Source: Escherichia phage vB_EcoM-CHD94UKE2
Sequence record: MZ234031.1
DNA length: 64,000 nucleotides
Strand: one strand, 5' to 3'
Under the pieces are notes generated by a model. That model saw only the letters and a list, made by a program, of their open reading frames with translations. It searched no databases and was not told where the DNA came from. Positions 2,343 to 54,486 of this stretch are shown piece after piece. Position numbers and translations under genes: made by a program. Numbering within the stretch: position 1 is the first letter of the stretch; each line of letters starts with the position of its first letter.

Positions 2343-2969
2343 ATGTATGAATACAAATTTGATGTGAGAGTTGGTTCTAAAATAATCAATTGTCGCGCAT
2401 TCACGCTTAAAGAATATCTAGAACTTATTACTGCCAAAAATAATGGTTCCGTAGAAGTAATTGTTAAAAAGCTAATCAAAGACTGCACAAATGCAAAAGA
2501 TTTAAACCGCCAAGAATCAGAACTACTGCTGATTCATTTATGGGCACATTCTCTCGGCGAAGTTAATCACGAAAACTCCTGGAAGTGCACCTGTGGAACT
2601 GAAATACCAACCCATATAAATCTATTACATACACAAATAGATGCATCAGAAGACCTCTGGTATACACTGGGTGACATTAAAATTAAATTCCGATACCCTA
2701 AAATTTTTGATGATAAAAATATAGCCCACATGATAGTATCATGCATAGAAACGATTCATGCTAACGGGGAAAGCATTCCAGTTGAAGACTTAAATGAAAA
2801 GGAACTAGAAGATTTATATTCTATCATCACAGAGTCAGATATTGTAGCTATAAAAGATATGCTTTTAAAACCTACCGTTTATTTGGCTGTTCCAATTAAG
2901 TGTCCAGAGTGTGGAAAAACCCATGCTCACGTAATAAGAGGCCTCAAAGAGTTCTTTGAGTTACTATAA
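2343..2969 (+). CDS. 26: baseplate hub subunit gp26
   Basis: 208 aa (T4 gp26 208 aa); divergent from gene 51 across bidirectional late promoter. Confidence 0.85.
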
Positions 2970-3367
2970 TGGCAAATATTAATAAGCTTTATTCTGATAT
3001 TGACCCGGAAATGAAAATGGATTGGAACAAAGATGTTTCCAGATCACTTGGATTAAGGTCAATTAAAAACAGTCTTTTGGGAATTATTACAACAAGAAAA
3101 GGTTCAAGACCGTTTGACCCTGAATTTGGATGTGATTTATCAGACCAGCTTTTTGAAAATATGACTCCTCTTACTGCTGACACAGTTGAGCGCAATATTG
3201 AAAGCGCAGTAAGAAACTATGAGCCACGTATTGATAAATTATCAGTTAATGTGATACCAGTTTATGATGATTATACTCTGATAGTAGAAATACGCTTTTC
3301 GGTCATCGATAACCCTGATGATATTGAGCAGATAAAACTGCAACTGGCTTCGAGTAATAGGGTATAA
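2969..3367 (+). CDS. 25: baseplate wedge subunit gp25
   Basis: 132 aa, [19 protein letters not shown]...; TAATG overlap with gene 26; matches T4 gp25 size. Confidence 0.9.
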   Translation: MANINKLYSDIDPEMKMDWNKDVSRSLGLRSIKNSLLGIITTRKGSRPFDPEFGCDLSDQLFENMTPLTADTVERNIESAVRNYEPRIDKLSVNVIPVYDDYTLIVEIRFSVIDNPDDIEQIKLQLASSNRV

Positions 3368-3393
3368 TGCTTCACGTATAAACGTGGTATAAT
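3366..3393 (+). promoter_or_regulatory. middle (MotA-dependent) promoter for uvsY
   Basis: MotA box AATGCTTCA (3366-3374) with TGGTATAAT -10 at 3388-3393. Confidence 0.65.
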
Positions 3394-3433
3394 GAATCTA
3401 AGTCCATCCAATAACAATTGAATAGAGAACAAT

Positions 3434-3847
3434 ATGAAATTAGAAGATCTTCAAGAAGAATTGAAGAAAGATGTGTTTATAGATTCGACTAAATTACAGT
3501 ATGAAGCAGCTAATAATGTGATGTTATATAGTAAATGGCTTAATAAGCATTCAAGTATTAAAAAGGAAATGCTTAGAATTGACGCACAGAAAAAAGTTGC
3601 TCTTAAAGCTAGATTAGACTACTACTCGGGACGAGGAGATGGTGATGAATTTAGTATGGATCGTTACGAGAAATCAGAAATGAAGACAGTTCTATCAGCT
3701 GATAAGGATGTTTTAAAGGTTGATACTTCATTACAATATTGGGGAATTTTATTAGATTTCTGTAGCGGAGCTCTTGATGCTATCAAATCACGCGGATTTG
3801 CTATTAAGCATATTCAAGACATGCGGGCATTTGAGGCTGGAAAATAA
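3434..3847 (+). CDS. uvsY: recombination mediator protein UvsY
   Basis: 137 aa, MKLEDLQEELKKDVFIDSTKLQYEAANNVMLYSKWLNKH...; near-identical to remembered T4 UvsY (137 aa). Confidence 0.95.
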   Translation: MKLEDLQEELKKDVFIDSTKLQYEAANNVMLYSKWLNKHSSIKKEMLRIDAQKKVALKARLDYYSGRGDGDEFSMDRYEKSEMKTVLSADKDVLKVDTSLQYWGILLDFCSGALDAIKSRGFAIKHIQDMRAFEAGK

Positions 3848-4071
3848 TGAGATATAGCATTGATGATGCTTTTAATTATGAAGAAGAATTTGAAACGGAA
3901 ATTCAATTCTTAATGAAAAAGCATAATCTTAAGCGTCAGGATATTCGTATCCTGGCCGACCACCCGTGTGGTGAAGATGTCCTTTATATTAAAGGAAAAT
4001 TTGCTGGATATCTTGATGAATATTTTTATTCTAAAGATATGGGCATTGATATGCATATGAGAGCTGTATAA
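3847..4071 (+). CDS. hypothetical protein (T4 uvsY.-1-like position)
   Basis: 74 aa ORF, ATG overlapping uvsY stop (TAATG). Confidence 0.6.
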   Translation: MRYSIDDAFNYEEEFETEIQFLMKKHNLKRQDIRILADHPCGEDVLYIKGKFAGYLDEYFYSKDMGIDMHMRAV

Positions 4072-4074
4072 ATA
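4067..4074 (+). promoter_or_regulatory. late promoter motif TATAAATA upstream of ORF 4100
   Basis: exact TATAAATA 26 nt upstream of ATG. Confidence 0.5.
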
Positions 4075-4099
4075 GATATATAATTCAGAGGAGACAATC

Positions 4100-4267
4100 A
4101 TGTCAGATAAGATTTGTGTTGTCTGTAAAACTCCAATCGATTCTGCATTGGTTGTTGAAACAGACAAAGGTCCTGTACATCCTGGGCCTTGCTATAATTA
4201 CATTAAAGAACTACCAGTTTCAGAAAGTTCGGAAGAACAATTAAATGAAACGCAACTTTTGCTATAG
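4100..4267 (+). CDS. small Cys-containing hypothetical protein (55 aa; uvsY.-2-like position)
   Basis: ATG 4100 preceded by GAGGAG RBS; MSDKICVVCKTPIDSALVVETDKGPVHPGPCYNY...; CxxC plus C motif; below ORF-track size cutoff. Confidence 0.5.
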   Translation: MSDKICVVCKTPIDSALVVETDKGPVHPGPCYNYIKELPVSESSEEQLNETQLLL

Positions 4268-4290
4268 TGTGACCTTTAGTCTATAGTTTT

Positions 4291-4319
4291 GGCCCTTCCT
4301 TTTTGGTTGGGCCTTTTTT
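4291..4319 (+). terminator. putative intrinsic terminator after ORF 4100 (convergent with uvsW.1)
   Basis: GGCCC...GGGCC stem followed by TTTTTT. Confidence 0.45.
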
Positions 4320-4322
4320 AAT

Positions 4323-4553
4323 TTAAAAGCTTTCTTCTACTTCATCGTCTGAATCTTCTAATTCAGCTCTTTTTCCTGCCAAAGCATCTCTGACTGAGAT
4401 GTCATCAGTATCTTTTAATTCAGTTTCTTTAACTCTTTTCTTATAATAAGCTTCAAGTTCTTCTAAACCTTCTAATGTTTGACAAGAGGCAATTTTACCC
4501 ATAAATTCATCAATAGAAGCTTCATAAAGAAATTGTTTAAATTCTAGTAACAT
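4323..4553 (-). CDS. uvsW.1: UvsW.1-like small protein
   Basis: ORF track starts at TTG (4565); first ATG in frame at 4551-4553 gives 76 aa (MLLEFKQFLYEA...). Confidence 0.7.
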   Translation of the reverse strand: MLLEFKQFLYEASIDEFMGKIASCQTLEGLEELEAYYKKRVKETELKDTDDISVRDALAGKRAELEDSDDEVEESF

Positions 4554-4578
4554 CTTTTTCTCCAAAGGGCCGAAGCCC

Positions 4579-6090
4579 TTATAAATTAACTGTTTTCATT
4601 ACGTAATTAAATTTTTCATCTGCGTAGCGCTGAATACGATCAATGCCGTGTTTTAAAAGATAGTTCAAGTGAACATATTTCTTTTTAGTATTAGCAGATT
4701 TTGGCTTGACACCACAGTCATCTATGAGGTCCCAGACTGTTGCGATTGTTTTAGAACCATGCTTACGTAATACACGACCGATTGTTTGTAATACAATGAT
4801 TTTTGATTTAACACCGTGCGCTAAAACAACGTGATGCAGATTTTTAACTGAAATACCAGTAGAAAATACACCATAACTAGCTACTATAATTATTCCTTTA
4901 CCATTTTCAGCTAAGGTTTTCATTATATTGCGGGTTTCGGTATCAACTTCCCCTGATACGTAATAAACTTTATCGTATTCATTTTTAATTAAATCGAAAA
5001 TAGCTTTACCATGTGATACATGTTTAAACATGACAAAAGCGTTTTCATCTTTTTGTGCAAGCTTAATAGCCAATTTAGCGATCCATTTATTTCTTTTACT
5101 AAGCCCCGTAATAATTTTTATTTCTTCTTGATAAGTTTTTCCCTTTAATTTAGTAGTGAACTCATCGGGATAGCGAAGAAAAATACTATTAATTTTTAGC
5201 TCAGTTACTTGTCCATCTTCCATTAACTTAGAAGTCGTTACTGGCTTAAATATTTCACCAAACATTCCAACATACTGCATGATATTGGCTTTGCCATCAC
5301 GTAATGAACCAGATAGACCAAATTTGAACATGCAGTTATTTAAACCTGATATGATAGATGAAATACTTTTTCCTGTAGCAAGATGGCATTCATCATTCAT
5401 CATCATTCCAAACTGTGAGAACCATTCTTTCGGTTGTTTTACTACAGTTTGCCATGTACCAACAACGACTGGTGCATCATTTTTATATTTATCATCTTTT
5501 GATGCTCCGCCACCAATTTTCTTTATCATTGCATGACTGAATAAACGATAGTCAACGAAGTCATCAGCCATCTGAGTTGTTAGAGCAGTTGTTGGAACAA
5601 TGATAAGAATTTTACCTTCATAATTTTCCAAATAATATCGCGCAAGCAAAGCTTGAATTAACGATTTACCAGCGGATGTTGGAAGATTAAGAATTCTACG
5701 ACGATTAACTAATCCTTCGAACACTGCATCTTTTTGATACCAATGCGGTTCAATTCTTTTATTTCCTGAATAGATTTCTAATTTAGAAAGCCATTCATCA
5801 AAATCTTTTCTTGATAATTCTTCTTTTTCGTTAATCTGTGGGTCAATCCAGGCTTTATAGCCAAAGTTATCGCAGAACTTTTTAATTTGCCCGACTAAAC
5901 CGAATGGAAGAAGGCGATTATAATCTAAAAGACGAATTCGTCCATCCCAGTGGCCATATTTGTACTTCGGATTAAAACGATACCCATCAGCTTCAAAGCT
6001 AAAGAAATCACGGAGTTCATGAAATGTACTTTCTTCGCAATCAATTCTCACGTGACTAAAATCATAAAAATGTACTTTAATGTCAGTCAT
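4579..6090 (-). CDS. uvsW: UvsW DNA helicase (SF2)
   Basis: 503 aa; Walker A LPTSAGKS and DECH box (MMMNDECHLATG); matches T4 UvsW length. Confidence 0.95.
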   Translation of the reverse strand: MTDIKVHFYDFSHVRIDCEESTFHELRDFFSFEADGYRFNPKYKYGHWDGRIRLLDYNRLLPFGLVGQIKKFCDNFGYKAWIDPQINEKEELSRKDFDEWLSKLEIYSGNKRIEPHWYQKDAVFEGLVNRRRILNLPTSAGKSLIQALLARYYLENYEGKILIIVPTTALTTQMADDFVDYRLFSHAMIKKIGGGASKDDKYKNDAPVVVGTWQTVVKQPKEWFSQFGMMMNDECHLATGKSISSIISGLNNCMFKFGLSGSLRDGKANIMQYVGMFGEIFKPVTTSKLMEDGQVTELKINSIFLRYPDEFTTKLKGKTYQEEIKIITGLSKRNKWIAKLAIKLAQKDENAFVMFKHVSHGKAIFDLIKNEYDKVYYVSGEVDTETRNIMKTLAENGKGIIIVASYGVFSTGISVKNLHHVVLAHGVKSKIIVLQTIGRVLRKHGSKTIATVWDLIDDCGVKPKSANTKKKYVHLNYLLKHGIDRIQRYADEKFNYVMKTVNL

Positions 6091-12813: not shown

Positions 12814-13623
12814 TTAGAAACGAGATGCGACTTTCGCATATACACTTACAATATCTTCTGCACCTTGTGCAGATTTATCTTCTACAGCTTCAGTGACGAA
12901 ATTCAGTCCGGCTGCTTCAGTATCAGGAGTATTTATACTCTCAGTAATAGTGCTTTCATCTTTATTAGATTTCTTCACCATTTCTACGATTGCACTCAAT
13001 TTACTTGAGAATGCATCTGAATAATCCATACCTTCGACCAGAGCAGAGACTTTTTCTTTTTGAGACTCAGTCAGATCTTTAGTACTTTCGCTCAATGCCA
13101 CTTCACGCTGCACATAATTGATATATGCGTCACGCTTATTGAGTTCTTCGAACAGACGAGCTGATTCTTCTTTATGTTCTTGCAGTTCTTCTTCCATTTC
13201 AGCTACAACATCAACTGATTCTTCTGGAACAACAACGTTGTGTTCAACGAAGAGCTCTTTCAATCCACCAAGCATGGATTCAAACAGTTCGGCTTTGATA
13301 CCTTTATCTACTGCTAATTTATTTTCAGTGAGCCATTCTTTTGCAAGATGGTCAAGGAATTTAGAAGCTTGCTCAGCGATTTTCTTCTCAGCTTTTTCTT
13401 CTGCTTCTTCTTTATTTTTTTCTACTTCTTCTTCTGCTTTTTCAGCAATTTTAGCGATATGAGATTCAGCTAATTTAACGGCGTGCTGCTTGACGGTAGC
13501 TTCGAATACAGTGCCGAAAGTTTCTTTTGCTTCCGGAGAAATATTAACTGATTCGAAAATACTATCAAGAGCAACGGAAGCATCAATTTTCTGCGCTTCG
13601 GCAATCAGTTGTTCTTTAAGCAT
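12814..13623 (-). CDS. 22: prohead core scaffold protein gp22
   Basis: 269 aa, highly charged coiled-coil; T4 gp22 269 aa. Confidence 0.95.
   Translation of the reverse strand: MLKEQLIAEAQKIDASVALDSIFESVNISPEAKETFGTVFEATVKQHAVKLAESHIAKIAEKAEEEVEKNKEEAEEKAEKKIAEQASKFLDHLAKEWLTENKLAVDKGIKAELFESMLGGLKELFVEHNVVVPEESVDVVAEMEEELQEHKEESARLFEELNKRDAYINYVQREVALSESTKDLTESQKEKVSALVEGMDYSDAFSSKLSAIVEMVKKSNKDESTITESINTPDTEAAGLNFVTEAVEDKSAQGAEDIVSVYAKVASRF
12930..12937 (-). promoter_or_regulatory. late promoter for gene 23 (inside 3' end of gene 22)
   Basis: rc TATAAATA within gene 22 coding sequence, about 135 nt upstream of gene 23 ATG. Confidence 0.5.
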
Positions 13624-13650: not shown

Positions 13651-13658
13651 TATTTATA
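13651..13658 (-). promoter_or_regulatory. late promoter for gene 22
   Basis: rc TATAAATA 28 nt upstream of gene 22 ATG. Confidence 0.7.
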
Positions 13659-14292
13659 ACGCTTTTTTCATGGCCTCTGCGAGAGCCATATAGGCGTCAT
13701 CGGCACTTGTATCGGCTTCCGCCGTCTGTGATTCGGTAATTTCCTTAGGAGTTACCCATGCATCTGGAGCACTTGGACCCCATACTGCATCAACACCTAC
13801 AGTTAATTTGAATCCTTCGTTTACGATACGATAACCTTTATTTGTGTCAGTCAATGAACCTAATCCACGAGAAGAAACTCCTGGAATCCATCCGGCACGA
13901 ATATTAGCTGCTAATTTATCTCCAGGACCGTGGTCACCTTCAATAACACGAGCTCGTCCGTATACGTCATTTCCTTTCCACCACATATCTTCTATAATGA
14001 TAGCGGCTTGCATCGGGTCAACATTAGCGCGTGGAGGATGATTTAATTCTCCGAGAGCTTGTTTAGTTAAAACTTGCTCATTAATATAGTCTTTTACCGC
14101 TTTTTCTAATATACGTTTTGGATAAAGACGTTTATTTCTATTGACGACTTCCGCTTGCATGAATATTCCTTCGATGTATAAACCCGGTTTTAAACCTAAG
14201 TCTTTTCCATCATGAGATTCAAGCATTGGTACGCCATCAATAATTTCGCCAGGTTGACCCCAAGTTTCAATTAGTAATTGGGGTTCATTCAT
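13654..14292 (-). CDS. 21: prohead core protease gp21
   Basis: 212 aa; T4 gp21 212 aa; synteny. Confidence 0.95.
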   Translation of the reverse strand: MNEPQLLIETWGQPGEIIDGVPMLESHDGKDLGLKPGLYIEGIFMQAEVVNRNKRLYPKRILEKAVKDYINEQVLTKQALGELNHPPRANVDPMQAAIIIEDMWWKGNDVYGRARVIEGDHGPGDKLAANIRAGWIPGVSSRGLGSLTDTNKGYRIVNEGFKLTVGVDAVWGPSAPDAWVTPKEITESQTAEADTSADDAYMALAEAMKKAL

Positions 14293-43257: not shown

Positions 43258-43515
43258 ATGAAAACTTTCAAAGAGTTTGCTACAAAAACTACTATCACTG
43301 AATCTTCCCACGGTATGGAAGTAAAGCTTGGAATGGCTTTAGCTGAAGCTGAGCGTCTTTTCTCTCGTATTAAAGAACTTGCTGCTGCGGTCGATCCTTC
43401 ATCTTTTAAAGGAGACCAAACTAAAGTTAAAGCACTTTTAGCATTATGCTCCGATGCAGGAGAAATTGCTAAAAATGGTTCTAAGATGAAGAAACGATTA
43501 GAAGATTTAAAATAA
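43258..43515 (+). CDS. internal-protein-like small protein with degenerate capsid-targeting leader
   Basis: 85 aa, MKTFKEFATKTTITE|SSH (ITE fits gp21 (I/L)xE cleavage motif); paralog of ORF 51409; preceded by early promoter stem-loop. Confidence 0.6.
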   Translation: MKTFKEFATKTTITESSHGMEVKLGMALAEAERLFSRIKELAAAVDPSSFKGDQTKVKALLALCSDAGEIAKNGSKMKKRLEDLK

Positions 43516-43586: not shown

Positions 43587-43820
43587 ATGAAAACTTACCA
43601 AGAATTTATTGCTGAAACTGCTGATGTAAAAGTTGAGTTTATTTACACTGGCAAGAAAGATAAAATGGGTGAAATGCCTCATGGAGTTCTTCGTGATGCA
43701 TTAGATAATTTCGGTCAACTCGCCGCAGAAGATTACGGTGATAAAATTGTTGTTACTGGTCCTGCTGCAGTTATTGAAAAATGGGCAGCAGAAAATAAAT
43801 CAATTTTTCGTAAAAAATAA
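43587..43820 (+). CDS. internal protein with canonical capsid-targeting sequence (IP)
   Basis: ATG 43587 (track ORF starts at upstream GTG); MKTYQEFIAE|TADVK..., 77 aa; preceded by early promoter. Confidence 0.7.
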   Translation: MKTYQEFIAETADVKVEFIYTGKKDKMGEMPHGVLRDALDNFGQLAAEDYGDKIVVTGPAAVIEKWAAENKSIFRKK

Positions 43821-44849: not shown

Positions 44850-44922
44850 TGGGAATTAGCCAAGTTGGTAAGGCACTGGATTTTGATTCCAGGATGCAAA
44901 GGTTCGAGTCCTTTATTCCCAG
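44850..44922 (+). tRNA. tRNA-Gln (anticodon UUG)
   Basis: cloverleaf read by hand: acceptor TGGGAAT/ATTCCCA, anticodon loop TTTTGAT, T-loop GGTTCGAGTCC. Confidence 0.85.
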
Positions 44923-44923
44923 C

Positions 44924-45010
44924 GCGAGAATGGCCAAATTGGTAAAGGCACAGCACTTAAAATGCTGCGGAATGATTTCCTTGTGGGTTCGAGTCCCACT
45001 TCTCGCACCA
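44924..45010 (+). tRNA. tRNA-Leu (anticodon UAA), type II with long variable arm, CCA encoded
   Basis: acceptor GCGAGAA/TTCTCGC, anticodon stem CAGCA/TGCTG loop CTTAAAA. Confidence 0.85.
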
Positions 45011-45015
45011 AATTT

Positions 45016-45089
<74 letters not shown>

Positions 45090-45099
45090 ATTTAATTTA

Positions 45100-45173
45100 C
45101 TCCGTGTAGCTCAGTTTGGTAGAGCGTCTGCTTTGGGAGCAGAATGTCGTAGGTTCAAATCCTGCCACGGAGA
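45100..45173 (+). tRNA. tRNA-Pro (anticodon UGG)
   Basis: acceptor CTCCGTG/CACGGAG, anticodon stem TCTGC/GCAGA loop TTTGGGA. Confidence 0.8.
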
Positions 45174-45175
45174 CT

Positions 45176-45265
45176 GGAGGCGTGGCAGAGTGGTTTAATG
45201 CACCGGTCTTGAAAACCGGCAGTCGCTCCGGCGACTCATAGGTTCAAATCCTATCGCCGCCGCCA
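45176..45265 (+). tRNA. tRNA-Ser (anticodon UGA), type II
   Basis: anticodon stem CCGGT... loop CTTGAAA, variable-arm hairpin GTCGC/GCGAC, T-loop GGTTCAAATCC, CCA encoded; acceptor position 3:70 reads A:G. Confidence 0.8.
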
Positions 45266-45270
45266 GTTTT

Positions 45271-45346
45271 GCTGATTTAGCTCAGTAGGTAGAGCAACTC
45301 ACTTGTAATGAGAAGGTCGGCGGTTCGATTCCGTCAATCAGCACCA
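45271..45346 (+). tRNA. tRNA-Thr (anticodon UGU)
   Basis: acceptor GCTGATT/AATCAGC, anticodon loop CTTGTAA, CCA encoded. Confidence 0.8.
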
Positions 45347-45347
45347 A

Positions 45348-45422
45348 GGCCCTGTAGCTGGAAGGTTCAAGCAAGCGACTCATAATCGCCAGATGGTGGT
45401 TCAATTCCACCCAGGGCCACCA
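45348..45422 (+). tRNA. tRNA-Ile (anticodon CAU, presumably lysidine-modified to read AUA as in T4)
   Basis: acceptor GGCCCTG/CAGGGCC, anticodon loop CTCATAA, CCA encoded. Confidence 0.75.
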
Positions 45423-45431
45423 AATTAATTT

Positions 45432-45518
45432 GGGGAGTTATCCCGTAGAGGTAGCGGTGTGGACTGTAAATCCATTGTCATTGCGACTCGGGTGGTTCGA
45501 CTCCACCATTCCCCACCA
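45432..45518 (+). tRNA. tRNA-Tyr-like (anticodon GUA), type II; D-arm atypical
   Basis: acceptor GGGGAGT/ATTCCCC (one G-U), anticodon stem GTGGA/TCCAT loop CTGTAAA, long variable arm, T-arm GGTGG-TTCGACT-CCACC, CCA encoded. Confidence 0.6.
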
Positions 45519-45522
45519 ATTT

Positions 45523-45597
45523 GGATGTGTAGCTCAATGGCAGAGCGATCGCCTGTTAAGCGATTGGTTATAGGTTCGAATCCTATCACGTCCGCCA
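45523..45597 (+). tRNA. tRNA-Asn (anticodon GUU)
   Basis: acceptor GGATGTG/CACGTCC, D-stem GCTC/GAGC, anticodon stem ATCGC/GCGAT loop CTGTTAA, CCA encoded. Confidence 0.8.
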
Positions 45598-45601
45598 AAT
45601 T

Positions 45602-45617
45602 TGTGACAACTGTCACA
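45602..45617. repeat. perfect palindrome TGTGACA-AC-TGTCACA in spacer between tRNA-Asn and tRNA-His
   Basis: read directly; 7-bp inverted repeat with 2-nt spacer. Confidence 0.7.
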
Positions 45618-45711
45618 TTAATATCTACTTGACGCGATTATAGGGGTTGAACTGATCACTCTTCTCTTAATTTCGTGTGAAGACATCTTGATTGTTGGAG
45701 TAGGTATTAAT

Positions 45712-45787
45712 GTGGCCGTAGTTCAGTTGGTAGAACTCGAGATTGTGATTCTCGTAGTCATGGGTTCGACTCCCATCGGTCACCCCA
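45712..45787 (+). tRNA. tRNA-His (anticodon GUG)
   Basis: acceptor GTGGCCG/CGGTCAC, D-stem GTTC/GAAC, anticodon stem CGAGA/TCTCG loop TTGTGAT, discriminator C, CCA encoded. Confidence 0.8.
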
Positions 45788-45791
45788 ATTA

Positions 45792-45867
45792 CGGGGCATA
45801 GCTCAGAAGGAAGAGCAAGGACCTTCTAAGTCCTAGGTCGTAGGTTCGATCCCTACTGCCTCGACCA
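45792..45867 (+). tRNA. tRNA-Arg (anticodon UCU)
   Basis: acceptor CGGGGCA/TGCCTCG, anticodon stem AGGAC/GTCCT loop CTTCTAA, CCA encoded. Confidence 0.85.
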
Positions 45868-46660: not shown

Positions 46661-47224
46661 ATGAAAACCTATGCCGAGTTTTTAACCGAAGCAGCAAAAT
46701 TACCATCTGAAGCAGATCTTACTAAAGTATTCTTCCACTTGGACCCAAAAGACCGCGGCGATTTTCTTAAGTGGAAAGCTAAAGCTATTGAAATGTATAA
46801 CATTGATAATAGTTCTTTTACGATGAGTCAAGAAAATAAATTCAATAAAGCATTTTTCAAAATTTCTAAGAAACTGGCATCTGGCGCTCAGGTTCCTAAA
46901 TCTGCCTTAGCTACTCCTGAACGTGCACCTGTCAAAATTTCTAAGAATATGTTCGACACTAAAAAATACGTTAATGCTTTGAATAAAGCTCTTGATGCAT
47001 TGGATGATGCAAAGAAGGCAGCCCGTGATCTTCAAGATGTGTACACCGATTTTGATCGTAAAACTAAAGGTTCTATTTCAAATAGCGAACGCAATAGTGT
47101 AAGTGTTTATTCTGATAGTCTTGATGTTCTTGGCGATGCGTATACTGAAATTAAAAATCGTATTAACACCGCATCTAAGCTAAAAGCTGCCGCAGAAGCT
47201 ATAATAACTAAACTAGATAAATAA
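46661..47224 (+). CDS. internal-protein-like protein with capsid-targeting leader (187 aa)
   Basis: MKTYAEFLTE|AAKLPSEADL...; LTE fits gp21 cleavage motif; terminator follows. Confidence 0.7.
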   Translation: MKTYAEFLTEAAKLPSEADLTKVFFHLDPKDRGDFLKWKAKAIEMYNIDNSSFTMSQENKFNKAFFKISKKLASGAQVPKSALATPERAPVKISKNMFDTKKYVNALNKALDALDDAKKAARDLQDVYTDFDRKTKGSISNSERNSVSVYSDSLDVLGDAYTEIKNRINTASKLKAAAEAIITKLDK

Positions 47225-49965: not shown

Positions 49966-50450
49966 TTTTAAAAACTCGCTGGTATGATTTAGATGATGGG
50001 GATGATGGCATTCCAGTTGATAGAGTTGACTGGAATGGCTGTTCCGAAGATATGAAAAATTTGCTGATTAGGGAGTTTAGAATGGGATATCAACCAGTTA
50101 AGCCATCTACTGCAACAGATGATAAATTCGTGTGTATTCATAATGGTCGCGCTAAATTAACGAACGCTGATTGGTTCACAGATAAAATTATGATTCTGTG
50201 GTATATTATTAGTCTTCCTGTGACATCATTCGTATTTTACTTTTTTATAAAAAATCCAATGGACAGAATAGGAGATTGGATTCTTTTAACCATACTTGTT
50301 AATATTTTTACAGCAGCAATACTATCAGGAATATGGTGCGTGTTCATTGAAATGCCATGGCGGTTACGCAGGCAGCAAAAGATTTTTGATGAAAAGAAAT
50401 ATACTCAAAATTTAAATAACTTTATTACTGAATGCAGGAAATTAAAATGA
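49962..50450 (+). CDS. two-TM membrane protein, paralog family member C
   Basis: 162 aa; hydrophobic helices; C-terminal FITECRKL; ATGA coupling at both ends. Confidence 0.6.
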   Translation: MILKTRWYDLDDGDDGIPVDRVDWNGCSEDMKNLLIREFRMGYQPVKPSTATDDKFVCIHNGRAKLTNADWFTDKIMILWYIISLPVTSFVFYFFIKNPMDRIGDWILLTILVNIFTAAILSGIWCVFIEMPWRLRRQQKIFDEKKYTQNLNNFITECRKLK

Positions 50451-50887
50451 AAACATTATCAGCTGGTATTATCTTTATGACAGAAGATAAAGATTTATTT
50501 ATGGGTCGAGTTACTGGTTCTCGTAAGCCTGGAATGATGGCACATCGCTGGGATATTCCAAAGGGCCGCGTAGAAAATTCTGATTTAAGCGCACTAGATG
50601 CAGCACGAAGAGAATGTTTAGAAGAGACTGGTTTTAGCAATTATAATCCAGACCTTCTAGAAGACCTATGTGTATTTAAATATTCTAGTAATAAAGACCT
50701 ACAGTTATTTTATTATACGATTCCAGTAGAGCATGAGATGTTTAGAAATTGCCATTGCGAGTCTTATTTTGAAAATAAAGATGGCGTTATGATTCCAGAG
50801 ATGGATGCTTTTGCTCTTATTCCTCGTACTCAGTGGCAATATGTGATGGGTCCTTCACTTTACCGAATAATGAACAACCTCTTTTAA
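50447..50887 (+). CDS. nudE: Nudix hydrolase NudE
   Basis: Nudix box GRVENSDLSALDAARRECLEETGF; ATG 50447 in ATGA junction (alternative ATG 50432); immediately upstream of e as in T4 (e.1). Confidence 0.8.
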   Translation: MKTLSAGIIFMTEDKDLFMGRVTGSRKPGMMAHRWDIPKGRVENSDLSALDAARRECLEETGFSNYNPDLLEDLCVFKYSSNKDLQLFYYTIPVEHEMFRNCHCESYFENKDGVMIPEMDAFALIPRTQWQYVMGPSLYRIMNNLF

Positions 50888-51690
<803 letters not shown>

Positions 51691-51691
51691 T

Positions 51692-51721
51692 GTTTACTTC
51701 CTCCAAGTACTTTGATACTAT
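51692..51721 (+). promoter_or_regulatory. early promoter upstream of denV
   Basis: GTTTAC 51692-51697, TACTAT 51716-51721, 17-nt spacing. Confidence 0.7.
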
Positions 51722-51748
51722 ACATTCATCAACTACTTGGAGGAAATT

Positions 51749-52162
51749 ATGACTCGTATCAATTTAACACTTGTTTCTGAACTGACCGACCAACATCTTA
51801 TGGCTGAGTATCGTGAATTACCACGCGTATTTGGTGCAGTCCGTAAACATGTTCAAAACGGTAAACGTGTAAAGGATTTTAAAATCTCTCCAACATTTAT
51901 CTTAGGCACAGGTCACGTAACATTCTTTTATGACAAACTCGAATTTTTACGTTTACGTCAAATCGAGCTAATCGCTGAATGCTTGAAACGTGGTTTCAAA
52001 ATCAAGGACACGACTGTCCAGGATATTTCCGACATCCCTGTCGAATTTCGTAATAATTATGTCCCGTCCGAAGCGTCCATTGCGATAAGTCAAGCTCGCT
52101 TAGATGAAAAAATTGCTCAACGCCCTACTTGGTACAAATACTATGGTAAATCAATTTACTAA
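51749..52162 (+). CDS. denV: endonuclease V (pyrimidine dimer DNA glycosylase)
   Basis: track ORF starts at TTG 51737; ATG 51749 after GGAGGAAA; [29 protein letters not shown]... matches T4 EndoV. Confidence 0.95.
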
Positions 52163-52168
52163 GGAAAA

Positions 52169-52429
52169 ATGAAAATGTATCAAGAATTTATCGCTGAAGC
52201 AGATGCCAAAGGCCCCAAATTTAAAGTTAAAGCTTTCGTTGGTGATGCCGAAGATTTTGGCTCATTAAAACGTAATGGGTATTTTTTCTTAGGTGGTGAT
52301 GGTAAAGAAATCAACACCTATGCAAAACGTAGTGAAATTGCTTATGTTGCTGCAAGTCCTAAAGTAGATGTTGACGATATTGGATACGATTTTAACAACT
52401 TCGGAATTATTTCTGGCGGTGAAGCTTAA
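52169..52429 (+). CDS. internal protein with capsid-targeting sequence (ipII-like size)
   Basis: MKMYQEFIAE|ADAKGPKF..., 86 aa. Confidence 0.75.
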   Translation: MKMYQEFIAEADAKGPKFKVKAFVGDAEDFGSLKRNGYFFLGGDGKEINTYAKRSEIAYVAASPKVDVDDIGYDFNNFGIISGGEA

Positions 52430-52432
52430 ACG

Positions 52433-52462
52433 GTTTACGCTTAAGTATTAATATGGTATAAT
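52433..52462 (+). promoter_or_regulatory. early promoter upstream of ipIII-like gene
   Basis: GTTTAC 52433-52438, TGGTATAAT -10 at 52457-52462. Confidence 0.65.
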
Positions 52463-52492
52463 TACTCTATCAAAACAAACAAGGAAACAAAA

Positions 52493-53071
52493 ATGAAAAC
52501 ATATAAAGAATTTATTGCTGAAGCTTCTGTAGTAAAGGCCAAAGGCATTAATAAGGACGAGTGGAACTATCGTGGTGGAAACGGCTTTGACCCTAAAACA
52601 GCCCCTATTGAACGATACTTAGCTACAAAAGCTTCCGATTTTAAAGCTTTCGCTTGGGAAGGACTTCGCTGGCGTACCGATTTAAATATTGAAGTTGACG
52701 GACTTAAATTTGCTCATATTGAAGATGTTGTTGCTAGTAACTTAGACGCAGCTTTTGTTAAAGCCGACAGTGATCTTCGTCGCTGGAATTTAAAACTGTT
52801 CTCTAAACAAAAAGGCCCGAAGTTTGTGCCTAAAGCCGGTAAATGGGTCATTGATAATAAATTAGCTAAGGCTGTCAACTACGCTGGTCTTGAATTCGCC
52901 AAGCACAAATCATCATGGAAAGGTCTTGATGCAATGGCTTTCCGTAAAGAATTTGCCGATGTTATGGCTAAAGGCGGCTTTAAGGCAGAAATAGATACCT
53001 CTAAAGGTACGTTTAAGGACGCTAATGTTCAGTACGCTTACGCCGTTGCTAATGCAGCCCGTGGTAATTAA
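52493..53071 (+). CDS. internal protein with capsid-targeting sequence (ipIII-like size)
   Basis: MKTYKEFIAE|ASVVKAKG..., 192 aa (T4 IPIII about 194 aa); own early promoter. Confidence 0.8.
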   Translation: MKTYKEFIAEASVVKAKGINKDEWNYRGGNGFDPKTAPIERYLATKASDFKAFAWEGLRWRTDLNIEVDGLKFAHIEDVVASNLDAAFVKADSDLRRWNLKLFSKQKGPKFVPKAGKWVIDNKLAKAVNYAGLEFAKHKSSWKGLDAMAFRKEFADVMAKGGFKAEIDTSKGTFKDANVQYAYAVANAARGN

Positions 53072-53248
53072 TAAGGCCGATACTTAGGCCTATTTACATT
53101 CAAATAACATGGGAACAACCTGGACCTCATGATTCTATGAGGGATTCCCGCCAACCTGTAATAAGGTCGAGCCCAAGTGCGGTAATGGGTAAATACAGAA
53201 ATGGACAATTCACGCGCCATGGAATGGCCCAAATTTAGAGAGAATAAA

Positions 53249-53791
53249 ATGAGAACATTTTTAACTGGTCCTTATCTATCCCTGATGAATGCTTTTACAC
53301 ACCATTCTGATGCTAGAGTAGAAGAAATTTGTAATAGTGGATTTTATGTACCTGATTCGCCACATTTATTTAAAGAATACTGCACACTTCGATTAGATGG
53401 TGGACGTCAATTCGGTAAATCAACTGCAGTAACTAATTTTGCCGCTAATTGGTTGTATGACGGTGGAACAGTTATTGTTCTTTCTAATACTTCAGCTTAC
53501 GCTAAAATTTCTGCGGGCCACATTAAAAAAGAATTTTCACGCTATTCTAATGATGATATTCGATTCCGTTTATTTACTGATTCTGTCCGTAGTTTTGTTG
53601 GTAATAGAGGTAGCAAGTTCAGAGGTTTATCGCTTTCGCGGATTTTGTATATAATCGATGAGCCTGTTAAATCTCCTGATATGGATAAAATTTACGATAT
53701 TCATATTGAAACTGTGCAATACTGCTGCAATAGTAAATGTTGCATTGGTGGTATTACTCGTCCACAGTTTTTCGTAATTGGAATGCAATGA
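53249..53791 (+). CDS. P-loop NTPase-like hypothetical protein
   Basis: Walker A GGRQFGKST and Walker B-like ILYIIDEP; ATG 53249 after AGAGAGAATAAA (alternative ATG 53201 used by ORF track). Confidence 0.55.
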   Translation: MRTFLTGPYLSLMNAFTHHSDARVEEICNSGFYVPDSPHLFKEYCTLRLDGGRQFGKSTAVTNFAANWLYDGGTVIVLSNTSAYAKISAGHIKKEFSRYSNDDIRFRLFTDSVRSFVGNRGSKFRGLSLSRILYIIDEPVKSPDMDKIYDIHIETVQYCCNSKCCIGGITRPQFFVIGMQ

Positions 53792-54123: not shown

Positions 54124-54486
54124 ATGAAAGCATATCAAATTCTTGAAGGCACGCATAAAGGTACTATTTATTTTGAAGATGGTATTCAAGCACGAATTAT
54201 TGTCTCTAAAACTTTTAAAGAGGACTCTTTTGTAGACCCAGAAATTTTCTATGGTTTGCATGCCCGTGAAATTGAAATTGAACCACAGCCTACGGTTAAA
54301 ATTGAAGGTGGTCAACACCTGAACGTTAACGTTCTGCGTCGCGAAACTCTGGAAGATGCAGTTAAGCATCCGGAAAAATATCCGCAGCTGACCATCCGTG
54401 TATCCGGTTATGCAGTTCGCTTTAACTCTCTGACTCCGGAACAGCAGCGCGACGTTATCGCTCGTACCTTTACTGAGAGTCTGTAA
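54124..54486 (+). CDS. autonomous glycyl radical cofactor GrcA/YfiD-like protein
   Basis: C-terminal glycyl-radical signature ...[29 protein letters not shown]; 3' half has host-like codon usage. Confidence 0.85.

What the first reader, a model, noticed from the sequence alone, without database searches (positions are those of the whole stretch)
52169..53071. ipII-like and ipIII-like genes located downstream of denV, a rearranged order relative to T4
In T4 as I recall it the order is e, ipIII, ipII, denV. Here it is e, a 93-aa IP, denV, an 86-aa IP (MKMYQEFIAE), then a 192-aa IP (MKTYKEFIAE) with its own early promoter. This indicates recombination within the IP locus and brings the total to six CTS-bearing ORFs in the window.
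Basis: partly seen in the sequence, partly recalled or inferred. Interest (0 to 1): 0.55.

Follow-up and report, generated by a model that had tools for sequence, protein, structure and literature searches.

The report
Common internal-protein gene order, not T4's
This T4-like phage carries its injected "internal protein" genes and the UV-repair gene denV in a different order from T4, but the layout is a common, already sequenced variant of a known recombination hotspot, so it is ordinary.

Summary
The window is 100% identical here to Escherichia phage vB_EcoM-G3F7. Its order is nudE, e, IP93, denV, IP86, ipIII, vs.8. The T4 reference has nudE, e, ipIII, ipII, denV, vs.8.

Two details need correcting.
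- The 192-aa ORF is a true IPIII orthologue, 94.8% identical in protein.
- The 86-aa ORF resembles IPII only in the 10-11 residue capsid targeting sequence (CTS). It belongs to another internal-protein family, RB69 ORF125c. T4-type ipII is absent.

This is not a private rearrangement.
- The e/IP93/denV junction occurs in 238 phage records.
- The denV/IP86 junction occurs in 159 records.
- The whole 3.2 kb is collinear in about 75 records.
- T4's own order occurs in only 36 records.

A segment of about 1.2 kb (about 51311-52522) is 95-100% identical to RB69-group (Mosigvirus) phages, while the flanking genes are 67-84% identical. One crossover lies inside gene e. The other lies at the leader/CTS of ipIII.

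The same promoter, leader and CTS precede different internal-protein bodies in different phages. T2 and T6 differ again.

Polymorphism of these loci has been known since 1994, so this is already known and of low interest.

The parts
50924..51412 (+). Gene e (T4 lysozyme). It is chimeric: T4/Tequatrovirus-type up to 51310 and RB69/Mosigvirus-type from 51316 to its stop. Its C-terminus (..TWKAYI*) differs from T4's (..TWDAYKNL*).
   Evidence: Pfam Phage_lysozyme. 94.4% aa identity to T4 e. Informative-site track: T-type at nearly all of about 70 sites, then R-type at 21 consecutive sites. End sequences.
51311..52522 (+). RB69-type mosaic segment of about 1.2 kb. It holds the 3' end of e, IP93, the denV promoter-hairpin, denV, IP86, an early promoter, and the leader and CTS of the next internal-protein gene.
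   Evidence: Per-segment nucleotide identity to RB69, PhAPEC2 and LF82-3 is 95-100% across IP93, denV, IP86 and the intergenic regions. Flanks are much lower: nudE 67-79%, e 82%, vs.8 84%. Homology to RB69 and LF82-3 ends at 52522-52524.
51409..51690 (+). IP93: a 93-aa internal head protein of the Ip5 family. Its CTS is [10 protein letters not shown]. Its ATG overlaps the stop codon of e (ATGA).
   Evidence: phrog_3499 'internal head protein', E=3e-46. 98.8% aa identity to RB69 ORF127c over the body, residues 13-93. 48.6% identity to the window's 85-aa ORF at 43258. About 48% identity to T2/PP01 ip5. No similarity to T4 IPII or IPIII beyond residue 16. AF2 model is a three-helix protein, pLDDT 79.6, with no informative fold match.
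51693..51745 (+). Composite element upstream of denV. The early-type promoter is TTTACT (51693-51698), 17 nt, TACTAT (51716-51721). It lies inside a 12-bp perfect hairpin (arms 51698-51709 and 51734-51745) whose 3' arm holds the denV Shine-Dalgarno GGAGG (51739-51743).
   Evidence: Fold -20.7 kcal/mol, z = -4.5, 0 of 200 shuffles as stable. An RNA starting after the -10 box does not form it (-2.1 kcal/mol). Inverted repeat I1. T4 has the same design with different but still complementary arms, TCTCCTGTAG/CTACAGGAGA. The promoter fits the PST/T4 PeSL consensus TTTACW-N17-TAYWAT (PMC4122927).
51749..52162 (+). denV (endonuclease V, pyrimidine-dimer glycosylase), RB69-type allele.
   Evidence: Pfam Pyr_excise, E=3.4e-14. 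91% aa but only 79.5% nt identity to T4 denV. 98.6% nt identity to RB69 denV.
52169..52429 (+). IP86: an 86-aa internal head protein of the RB69 ORF125c family. Its CTS is MKMYQEFIAE. It is not an IPII homologue.
   Evidence: phrog_2667 'internal head protein', E=1.2e-19, and phrog_35655. 92% aa identity to RB69 ORF125c. Present in 217 phage records, including VR7 (70%) and Salmonella phages STP4-a, CGG4-1 and Melville (62-67%). Matches T4 IPII only over residues 1-11. No Pfam, NCBIfam or PDB match. AF2 single-sequence model unusable, pLDDT 38.6.
52434..52524 (+). Portable 5' module: early promoter (TTTACG 52434-52439, 17 nt, TATAAT 52457-52462), leader, Shine-Dalgarno and the CTS-coding 30 nt of ipIII.
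   Evidence: Promoter scan, 10 of 12 matches plus TG. The 60-nt promoter/leader is identical in UFV13, PhAPEC2, RB69 and LF82-3. There it precedes ipIII, a 90/104-aa internal protein, or ipII. Segment identity is 100%. It forms a 71-nt direct repeat at 75% identity with 52130-52200, the leader and CTS of IP86 (D1).
52493..53071 (+). ipIII orthologue (192 aa). Its CTS is MKTYKEFIAE.
   Evidence: 94.8% aa identity over the full length of T4 IPIII. 92-94% nt identity to T4 from -12 to +17 past the stop. phrog_5341, E=1.8e-117.
53074..53091 (+). Hairpin after ipIII (AGGCC, 8 nt, GGCCT), terminator-like. It marks the second cassette slot, which is empty here (53089-53110). T4 holds ipII-denV at this point and Shfl2 holds Ip4.
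   Evidence: Terminator scan. Fold -9.4 kcal/mol, z = -3.1. Homology to T4 jumps from T4rc 2684 to 3563, and to Shfl2 from 3256 to 3840. Many database hits begin at 53091-53109.
53111..53791 (+). Conserved vs.8 upstream segment (53111-53248) and the vs.8 core ORF (MRTFLTG..., 53249-53791). This is the right-hand conserved flank of the hotspot.
   Evidence: 93% nt identity to T4, starting immediately after T4's denV stop. phrog_1488. An in-frame stop at 53236-53238 interrupts the N-terminal extension annotated in T4.
43258..43515 (+). Ip5-like 85-aa ORF in the other internal-protein locus (downstream of 57B). It is a paralogue of IP93 with a degenerate CTS (MKTFKEFATK).
   Evidence: phrog_3499, E=1.2e-49. 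48.6% identity to IP93. T2 has ip5 at the same place after 57B.
43587..43820 (+). 77-aa internal protein with a canonical CTS (MKTYQEFIAE), in the 57B-tRNA internal-protein locus.
   Evidence: phrog_8111 'internal virion protein', E=1.2e-52.
46661..47224 (+). 187-aa ORF downstream of the tRNA cluster with a CTS (MKTYAEFLTE).
   Evidence: phrog_2280, unknown function.
13654..14292 (-). gp21 prohead protease, which removes the CTS. The gp22 scaffold gene lies next to it at 12814-13623.
   Evidence: Pfam Peptidase_S77, E=1.5e-111, and T4_CASP, E=5.2e-90.

Best explanation
The region is one common allele of the e-to-vs.8 internal-protein hotspot of T-even phages.

Gene content. It encodes three small proteins: IP93, IP86 and IPIII. 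Each begins with the 10-residue capsid targeting sequence (CTS). By analogy with T4, the CTS brings each protein into the scaffolding core of the prohead. The gp21 protease then removes the CTS after Glu10, and the mature protein is injected with the DNA. IPIII is expected to inhibit a particular GmrSD-type Type IV restriction enzyme, as T4 Ip3 does. IP86 and IP93 most likely inhibit other, still unassigned variants of host defence.

How the order arose. The order differs from T4 because the hotspot is built from exchangeable cassettes. Here an RB69-type block lies between e and ipIII. The block comprises the 3' end of e, IP93, a promoter-hairpin, denV, IP86, and a promoter with leader and CTS. 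The slot after ipIII is empty, whereas T4 carries ipII-denV there.

Mechanism of exchange. The exchange was by homologous recombination. One crossover is inside gene e. The other is in the roughly 45-95 nt promoter/leader/CTS sequence that all these internal-protein genes share.

Shown here: gene content, order, identities, breakpoints and distribution among sequenced phages.

Inferred: packaging, cleavage, injection, the anti-restriction roles of IP86 and IP93, and the direction and mechanism of the exchange.
For: - Identity and order: the region is 100% identical to phage G3F7. Gene order is, and T4's order.
- Orthology: IPIII is 94.8% identical in protein. IP86 and IP93 match T4 internal proteins only in the CTS. 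All three match PHROG internal head/virion protein families.
- Machinery: gp21 protease and gp22 scaffold are in the same window. Y4, F7, [IL]8 and E10 are present in all three CTSs. These match the determinants described in PMC9026906.
- Mosaicism: the cassette is 95-100% identical to Mosigvirus phages against 67-84% for the flanks. denV is only 79.5% identical to T4's.
- Breakpoints: a clean switch occurs between 51310 and 51316 inside e. The right junction is at the CTS end, 52522-52524.
- Shared adapter: the identical promoter, leader and CTS are fused to ipIII, ipII or a third internal-protein body in different phages. A 71-nt leader+CTS direct repeat flanks IP86.
- Alternative contents of the same slots are seen in T4, Shfl2, RB69, LF82-3, UFV13, PhAPEC2, T2 and T6.
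- Prevalence: 238, 159, 84 and 75 records share the junctions or the whole layout, against 36 for T4's.
- Literature:
  - Internal proteins are diverse, with only the CTS conserved (PMC3012670).
  - Ip1, Ip2 and Ip3 each block one GmrSD variant, and the two Ip loci are called a hotspot (PMC12373910).
  - IPIII is needed to infect ECOR17 (PMC9391042).
  - Promoter/stem-loop cassettes mediate shuffling in T4-type phages, and PST and T4 differ in five internal proteins (PMC2839356 and PMC4122927).
Against: - There is no direct evidence here that IP86 or IP93 are in the virion or are injected.
- Their functions are unknown. [quoted passage not shown] The GmrSD-inhibitor role for IP86 and IP93 is therefore a guess by analogy.
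- IP86 is truncated or frameshifted in PhAPEC2 and UFV13, so it is dispensable at least in some lineages.
- The direction of transfer between Tequatrovirus and Mosigvirus is not resolved.
- The promoter before ipIII has no obvious adjacent stem-loop, so it is not a textbook PeSL.
- High cassette identity could partly reflect selection. This would not explain 100% identical intergenic DNA or the sharp breakpoint.
Confidence: 0.85

Rival explanations
1. One reading: a lineage-specific rearrangement in which ipII and ipIII were transposed from upstream to downstream of denV in this phage.
For: The order relative to T4 really is e, IP, denV, IP, ipIII instead of e, ipIII, ipII, denV.
Against: - The 86-aa gene is not ipII.
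- denV here is a different allele, 79.5% identical to T4 in nucleotides but 98.6% to RB69. denV and its neighbours were swapped in as a block; ipIII was not moved.
- In Shfl2, ipIII is adjacent to e as in T4, with no denV at all.
- The layout is shared by dozens to hundreds of isolates, and its core is also in RB69.
Confidence: 0.04
2. Vertical inheritance. The e-IP93-denV-IP86 layout is ancestral to Tequatrovirus and Mosigvirus, T4's layout is derived, and the high cassette identity reflects purifying selection rather than recent exchange.
For: The layout occurs in both genera. IP86 homologues at 62-70% identity occur in VR7 and in Salmonella phages STP4-a, CGG4-1 and Melville. T4's layout is rare.
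Against: - Selection on proteins does not give 98.6% nucleotide identity in denV and 100% in intergenic DNA when adjacent genes are 67-84% identical.
- The switch from T4-type to RB69-type within a few bases inside e, 21 of 21 sites after 51316, is the signature of a crossover.
Confidence: 0.1
3. Assembly or laboratory artefact, for example a chimeric contig from a mixed T-even lysate.
For: T-even phages recombine readily in mixed infections, and mixed lysates can give chimeric assemblies.
Against: The same junctions are found at 95-99% but not 100% identity in many independently isolated and sequenced phages from different countries and hosts.
Confidence: 0.01

Closest known systems
Phage T4 ipIII-ipII-denV region (NC_000866, 64.9-66.4 kb)
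   Same: - The flanks are the same (nudE, e and vs.8, vs.7, vs.6) at 92-98% nt identity.
- ipIII is the same gene (94.8% aa).
- denV has the same function (91% aa).
- The CTS and the promoter-in-hairpin design before denV are the same.
   Different: - The order differs.
- There is no ipII.
- Two extra internal-protein genes are present (IP93, IP86).
- The denV allele is 20% diverged in DNA.
- ipIII has a different promoter and leader.
- The C-terminus of e is altered.
Phage RB69 e-ORF127c-denV-ORF125c-ORF124c-ORF123c-vs.8 (NC_004928)
   Same: The block from the 3' end of e through IP93, denV, IP86, the promoter, the leader and the CTS is 95-100% identical in DNA and in the same order.
   Different: - After the shared CTS, RB69 carries two other internal-protein-like genes (90 and 109 aa) instead of ipIII.
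- Its flanking genes are only 67-84% identical.
- The reference RB69 ORF127c has an indel-shifted CTS.
Polymorphic internal-protein loci of T-even phages (Repoila et al. 1994, EMBO J 13:4181; Ip4-Ip13 nomenclature)
   Same: The paper describes two loci in which the number, order and identity of CTS-bearing genes vary between phages. That description of its content is from my memory. The paper is not in the held library. It is cited for exactly this in PMC3012670 and PMC12373910. The names ip4, ip5 and ip7 are used in the T2 and Shfl2 records.
   Different: Nothing in kind. The window is simply one more allele. IP93 is an Ip5 paralogue sitting in the e locus rather than the 57B locus.
PeSL (promoter-early / stem-loop) mobile regulatory cassettes of T4-type phages (Arbiol 2010, PMC2839356; Comeau 2014, PMC4122927)
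   Same: - Early promoters matching TTTACW-N17-TAYWAT flank the variable genes in a hyperplastic region.
- A stem-loop is associated with the denV promoter.
- Repeated intergenic sequences bracket cassettes such as Ip4 in Shfl2.
   Different: - At least one junction lies in coding DNA (the CTS) and another inside gene e, rather than in a PeSL.
- The denV hairpin encloses the promoter instead of preceding it.
- No mini-circle evidence is available here.
T4 Ip1/Ip2/Ip3 as injected, subtype-specific inhibitors of GmrSD Type IV restriction enzymes (Silas et al. 2025, PMC12373910)
   Same: The window's IPIII is 95% identical to T4 Ip3. IP86 and IP93 share the CTS and the locus.
   Different: IP86 and IP93 have no sequence similarity to Ip1-3 beyond the CTS, and no target is known for them.

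Membership tests
T4-type internal proteins (CTS-bearing, gp21-processed, injected) | N-terminal 10-residue CTS. Residues 4 and 7 are needed for targeting. Residue 8 (L/I) and Glu10 are needed for gp21 cleavage (PMC9026906). | tested here: met
   IP93 is [12 protein letters not shown]86 is MKMYQEFIAE and IPIII is MKTYKEFIAE. All have Y4, F7, I/L8 and E10. The 85-aa ORF at 43258 (MKTFKEFATK) fails at positions 8 and 10 but has I-T-E at residues 13-15.
T4-type internal proteins (CTS-bearing, gp21-processed, injected) | The genome encodes the gp21 prohead protease and the gp22 scaffolding core that receive and process CTS proteins. | tested here: met
   Peptidase_S77, E=1.5e-111 (13654-14292, minus strand). 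T4_CASP, E=5.2e-90 (12814-13623, minus strand).
T4-type internal proteins (CTS-bearing, gp21-processed, injected) | The gene lies in one of the two polymorphic internal-protein loci (57B to tRNA, or e to vs.8). | tested here: met
T4-type internal proteins (CTS-bearing, gp21-processed, injected) | The mature protein is physically present in the virion and is injected with the DNA. | not testable with these tools
   This needs virion proteomics or injection assays. No paper mentioning RB69 ORF125c or ORF127c was found.
IPIII (T4 gene ipIII) | Full-length sequence similarity to T4 IPIII. | tested here: met
   94.8% identity over 192 of 193 residues, E=2e-139. phrog_5341, E=1.8e-117.
IPII (T4 gene ipII) | Sequence similarity to T4 IPII beyond the shared CTS. 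| tested here: not met
   The 86-aa ORF aligns to IPII only over residues 1-11. The 93-aa ORF likewise. With the CTS removed, no link appears to the IPII cluster (T4, LF82-3). T4 ipII DNA is absent from the window.
DenV / endonuclease V (Pfam Pyr_excise PF03013) | Match to the family profile above the curated cut-off, and similarity to T4 DenV. | tested here: met
   53.4 bits against a cut-off of 23. 91% aa identity to T4 DenV.
PeSL mobile regulatory cassettes | Early promoter matching the T4/PST consensus TTTACW-N17-TAYWAT, located in a hyperplastic region next to variable ORFs. | tested here: met
   TTTACT-N17-TACTAT before denV. TTTACG-N17-TATAAT before ipIII; this -35 hexamer ends in G, one base off the consensus W. 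Consensus from PMC4122927.
PeSL mobile regulatory cassettes | A stem-loop (terminator-like) joined to the promoter. | tested here: inconclusive
   The denV promoter is enclosed by a strong hairpin, not preceded by one. No convincing stem-loop adjoins the ipIII promoter. A hairpin follows ipIII (53074-53091), but no promoter follows it.
PeSL mobile regulatory cassettes | Recombination between flanking copies, giving excised mini-circles. | not testable with these tools
   This requires inverse PCR on infected cells, as in PMC2839356.

The most novel reading that the evidence does not exclude
The 1.2-kb block from the 3' end of e through IP93, denV and IP86 to the promoter, leader and CTS is a unit that was exchanged recently between two genera, Mosigvirus and Tequatrovirus. 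The roughly 95-nt promoter-leader-CTS acts as a universal recombination adapter that lets any injected payload (ipIII, ipII or others) be plugged in behind it. IP86 and IP93 would then be inhibitors of still unassigned host defences, for example further GmrSD variants. The data here show the identity discontinuity, the two crossovers and the shared adapter. They do not show the direction of transfer, the mechanism or the payload functions. The general idea is already in the literature on internal-protein loci and PeSLs.
Probability: 0.5. Interest if true: 0.3.

Novelty: already known. Interest (0 to 1): 0.12.

Why it matters
For genome annotation it matters only a little.
- The 86-aa and 93-aa ORFs should be labelled as internal head proteins of the RB69 ORF125c and Ip5/ORF127c families, not as ipII.
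- The phage should be recorded as lacking Ip2 while carrying Ip3.

Internal proteins are injected inhibitors of specific Type IV restriction enzymes (PMC12373910). The set a therapeutic or environmental T-even phage carries therefore predicts part of its host range.

The region is also a clean textbook example of cassette exchange through short conserved leader/CTS sequences. It does not reveal a new kind of element or open a new question.

Tried and rejected
- Pfam, NCBIfam and PDB sequence searches for IP86, IP93 and IPIII found nothing.
- The AlphaFold single-sequence model of IP86 had pLDDT 38.6 and was unusable, so it was not searched.
- The IP93 model (with its window paralogue) had pLDDT 79.6 and is a three-helix protein. 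Foldseek against the PDB gave only E>1 matches to generic helical proteins, so it was uninformative.
- Rfam found only the 10 tRNAs at the gathering threshold and nothing credible in 51300-53400 at E<=1.
- I considered that the conserved, GC-richer 53100-53250 segment upstream of vs.8 might be a structured RNA. Its fold is no better than shuffles (z = 0.11), so I dropped the idea.
- A weak blastp link between IP86 and the 85-aa Ip5-like ORF (24 aa, E about 0.004 in a tiny database) was judged to be chance.
- Repoila et al. 1994 could not be read because it is not held. No paper mentions RB69 ORF125c or ORF127c. Petrov 2010 does not discuss internal proteins.
- The large protein-database searches (search for homologous proteins, the search of protein representatives) were not used. 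The phage nucleotide collection already answered the question of order and distribution.
Full report
**What is there**

The window is a Tequatrovirus genome segment. Region 50400-53600 is 100% identical to Escherichia phage vB_EcoM-G3F7 and G3F10, and 94-98% identical and collinear with dozens of other isolates. G3F7 belongs to species Tequatrovirus gee4498.

On the + strand the ORFs are:
- nudE, 50432-50887
- e, 50924-51412
- a 93-aa ORF, 51409-51690 (IP93)
- denV, 51749-52162
- an 86-aa ORF, 52169-52429 (IP86)
- a 192-aa ORF, 52493-53071
- vs.8, vs.7 and vs.6

The T4 reference has, in the same transcriptional direction, nudE, e, ipIII, ipII, denV, vs.8, vs.7, vs.6.

**Identity of the genes**

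- The 192-aa protein is IPIII. It is 94.8% identical to T4 IPIII over its full length and matches phrog_5341.
- The 86-aa and 93-aa proteins match T4 IPII and IPIII only in the first 11-16 residues, which is the capsid targeting sequence (CTS).
- With the CTS removed, IP86 clusters with RB69 ORF125c (92% identity).
- With the CTS removed, IP93 clusters with RB69 ORF127c (98.8%). It also matches an 85-aa ORF of the window at 43258-43515 at 48.6% identity. Both are in phrog_3499, the family of T2 ip5.
- T4-type ipII is absent from the window. 'ipII-like' is therefore wrong except for the CTS.
- All three CTSs keep Y4, F7, I/L8 and E10, the residues reported to matter for targeting and gp21 cleavage.
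- gp21 and gp22 are encoded in the same window.
- The strict CTS motif occurs five times, always at ORF starts, against none in 100 shuffles.

**How the order arose**

blastn against T4 gives five kinds of segment:

| Window segment | Match in T4 | Identity |
|---|---|---|
| 50000-51407 | nudE and e | 93% |
| 51408-51712 | no T4 counterpart | - |
| 51713-52158 | denV | 78.6% |
| 52481-53088 | ipIII, from -12 to +17 around the gene | 92% |
| 53111 onward | sequence immediately after T4's denV stop | 93% |

The per-segment comparison shows that IP93, the IP93-denV spacer, denV, IP86 and the IP86-ipIII spacer are 95-100% identical to RB69, PhAPEC2 and LF82-3, all Mosigvirus. In the same comparisons nudE is 67-79%, e is 82% and vs.8 is 84% identical.

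I then looked at sites inside e where T4 and Shfl2 agree with each other and differ from RB69 and LF82-3. The window is T4-type at essentially all such sites up to 51310. It is RB69-type at all 21 sites from 51316 to the stop codon. That is a crossover inside e, and it also explains the altered C-terminus of lysozyme.

On the right, homology to RB69 and LF82-3 stops at 52522-52524. This is exactly the last base of the CTS-coding sequence of ipIII. Many database hits to 52100-52560 stop at the same point.

The 60-nt promoter/leader before that CTS is identical in five phages. It is followed by ipIII in the window and PhAPEC2, by T4-like ipII in LF82-3, and by a third internal protein in RB69 and UFV13. 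Within the window, the leader and CTS of IP86 and of ipIII form a 71-nt direct repeat at 75% identity.

A second slot lies just after the ipIII hairpin (53074-53091). It holds ipII-denV in T4 and Ip4 in Shfl2, and nothing here.

ipIII therefore has not moved. An RB69-type block has replaced the e-ipIII junction, and the T4 ipII-denV block is absent.

**How common it is**

| Feature | Phage records with at least 80% coverage |
|---|---|
| e/IP93/denV junction | 238 |
| denV/IP86/promoter-CTS junction | 159 |
| ipIII/vs.8 direct junction | 84 |
| whole 3.2 kb | 75 |
| T4-type e-ipIII-ipII-denV | 36 |

The classical trio already differ from each other. T2 has e-ip4-vs.8, with no ipIII and no denV. 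The T6 record goes from e straight to regB.

The locus is a known hotspot. Reviews state that T-even internal proteins are highly diverse with only the CTS conserved, citing Repoila et al. 1994. That paper itself could not be read. Silas et al. 2025 speak of two Ip loci forming a genomic hotspot, with at least ten Ips reported. Comeau et al. 2014 note five internal-protein differences between PST and T4 and attribute shuffling in hyperplastic regions to promoter/stem-loop cassettes (mechanism).

**How it most likely works**

By analogy with T4, the CTS docks each protein into the scaffolding core, gp21 cleaves after Glu10, and the mature proteins leave with the DNA.

T4 Ip3 inhibits the two-gene GmrSD system of ECOR17, and T4 needs ipIII to infect that strain. 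The 95%-identical IPIII here should do the same. The phage lacks Ip2, so it is predicted to be sensitive to the BrxU/GmrSD(ECOR21) type unless another internal protein covers it.

The targets of IP86 and IP93 are unknown. No family, solved structure or informative fold match was found.

Expression can be read from the sequence as follows:
- IP93 has no promoter of its own. Its ATG overlaps the stop codon of e, so it is probably made from the e transcripts. Late promoters TATAAATA lie at 50890 and 50903.
- denV and ipIII each have an early-type promoter.

**Verdict**

It is wrong about which genes are involved and about what moved. The arrangement is a frequent, already deposited allele of a long-known polymorphic locus.

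Novelty: already known. Interest: low.

Noticed in passing
window 51693-51751: The denV early-type promoter (TTTACT-N17-TACTAT) lies inside a perfect 12-bp hairpin whose 3' arm contains the denV Shine-Dalgarno sequence. Read-through RNA would bury the ribosome-binding site (-20.7 kcal/mol, z = -4.5). RNA started at this promoter would not (-2.1 kcal/mol). T4 has the same design with different, still complementary arms, which are compensatory changes. This resembles the known control of T4 gene e; that comparison is from memory.
   Followed up: partly
window 53137-53248: T4's 219-aa vs.8 annotation includes an N-terminal extension (MRDSRQPV...). In the window and in Shfl2 this extension is closed by an in-frame stop (53236-53238). 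RB69, Shfl2 and PhAPEC2 annotate shorter vs.8 proteins. The real start is probably MRTFLTG at 53249, and G3F7 annotates yet another start at 53219. The upstream 140 nt is conserved and GC-richer but shows no significant RNA fold and no Rfam match.
   Followed up: partly
L003 (UFV13) 2570-2828; L004/L011 (PhAPEC2) IP86 homologue: The IP86 gene is split by a frameshift in UFV13 (two short CDSs). In PhAPEC2 it carries an internal in-frame deletion, leaving 38 aa (MKMYQEFIIEADAKGPK|VDVDDIGY...). The gene appears to be decaying in some lineages.
   Followed up: partly
L008 (RB69) ORF127c, locus rc 1298: In the RB69 reference sequence the IP93 homologue starts MKTYMNFYQNLSLNEATD instead of [18 protein letters not shown]. 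This is a short frame shift across the CTS, from either sequencing errors or a genuinely disabled CTS.
   Followed up: no
window 43258-43515: This Ip5-like 85-aa ORF lies just after 57B and is a paralogue of IP93. Its CTS is degenerate (MKTFKEFATK, no Glu10), but an I-T-E motif at residues 13-15 could serve as an alternative gp21 site.
   Followed up: partly
window 44850-45864: There is a cluster of ten tRNA genes between the two internal-protein loci. The T2 record lists nine in the corresponding region. T4 has eight, from memory.
   Followed up: no
window 50887-50926: A hairpin overlaps the ribosome-binding site of gene e and is preceded by two late-promoter TATAAATA boxes at 50890 and 50903 (-16.2 kcal/mol, z = -4.2). 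This is the classical arrangement described for T4 lysozyme, from memory.
   Followed up: no
L013 (T6, MH550421.1) 1018-1512; L012 (T2, MH751506.1) 3261-4992: The T6 record goes from e directly to regB, so ipIII through vs.3 are all missing. The T2 record has only ip4 between e and a fragmented vs.8, with no ipIII or denV. The three classical T-evens therefore all differ at this locus.
   Followed up: partly
window 54124-54486: vs.6 encodes a GrcA-like autonomous glycyl-radical cofactor (Pfam Gly_radical, E=2.8e-18). It is conserved at 93-98% nt identity even to Mosigvirus.
   Followed up: no
MZ560701.1 (phage TU01) 105396-107439: This phage has the e/IP93/denV junction, but an 'endonuclease' gene abuts vs.8 instead of ipIII. 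It looks like yet another allele of the same slot.
   Followed up: no
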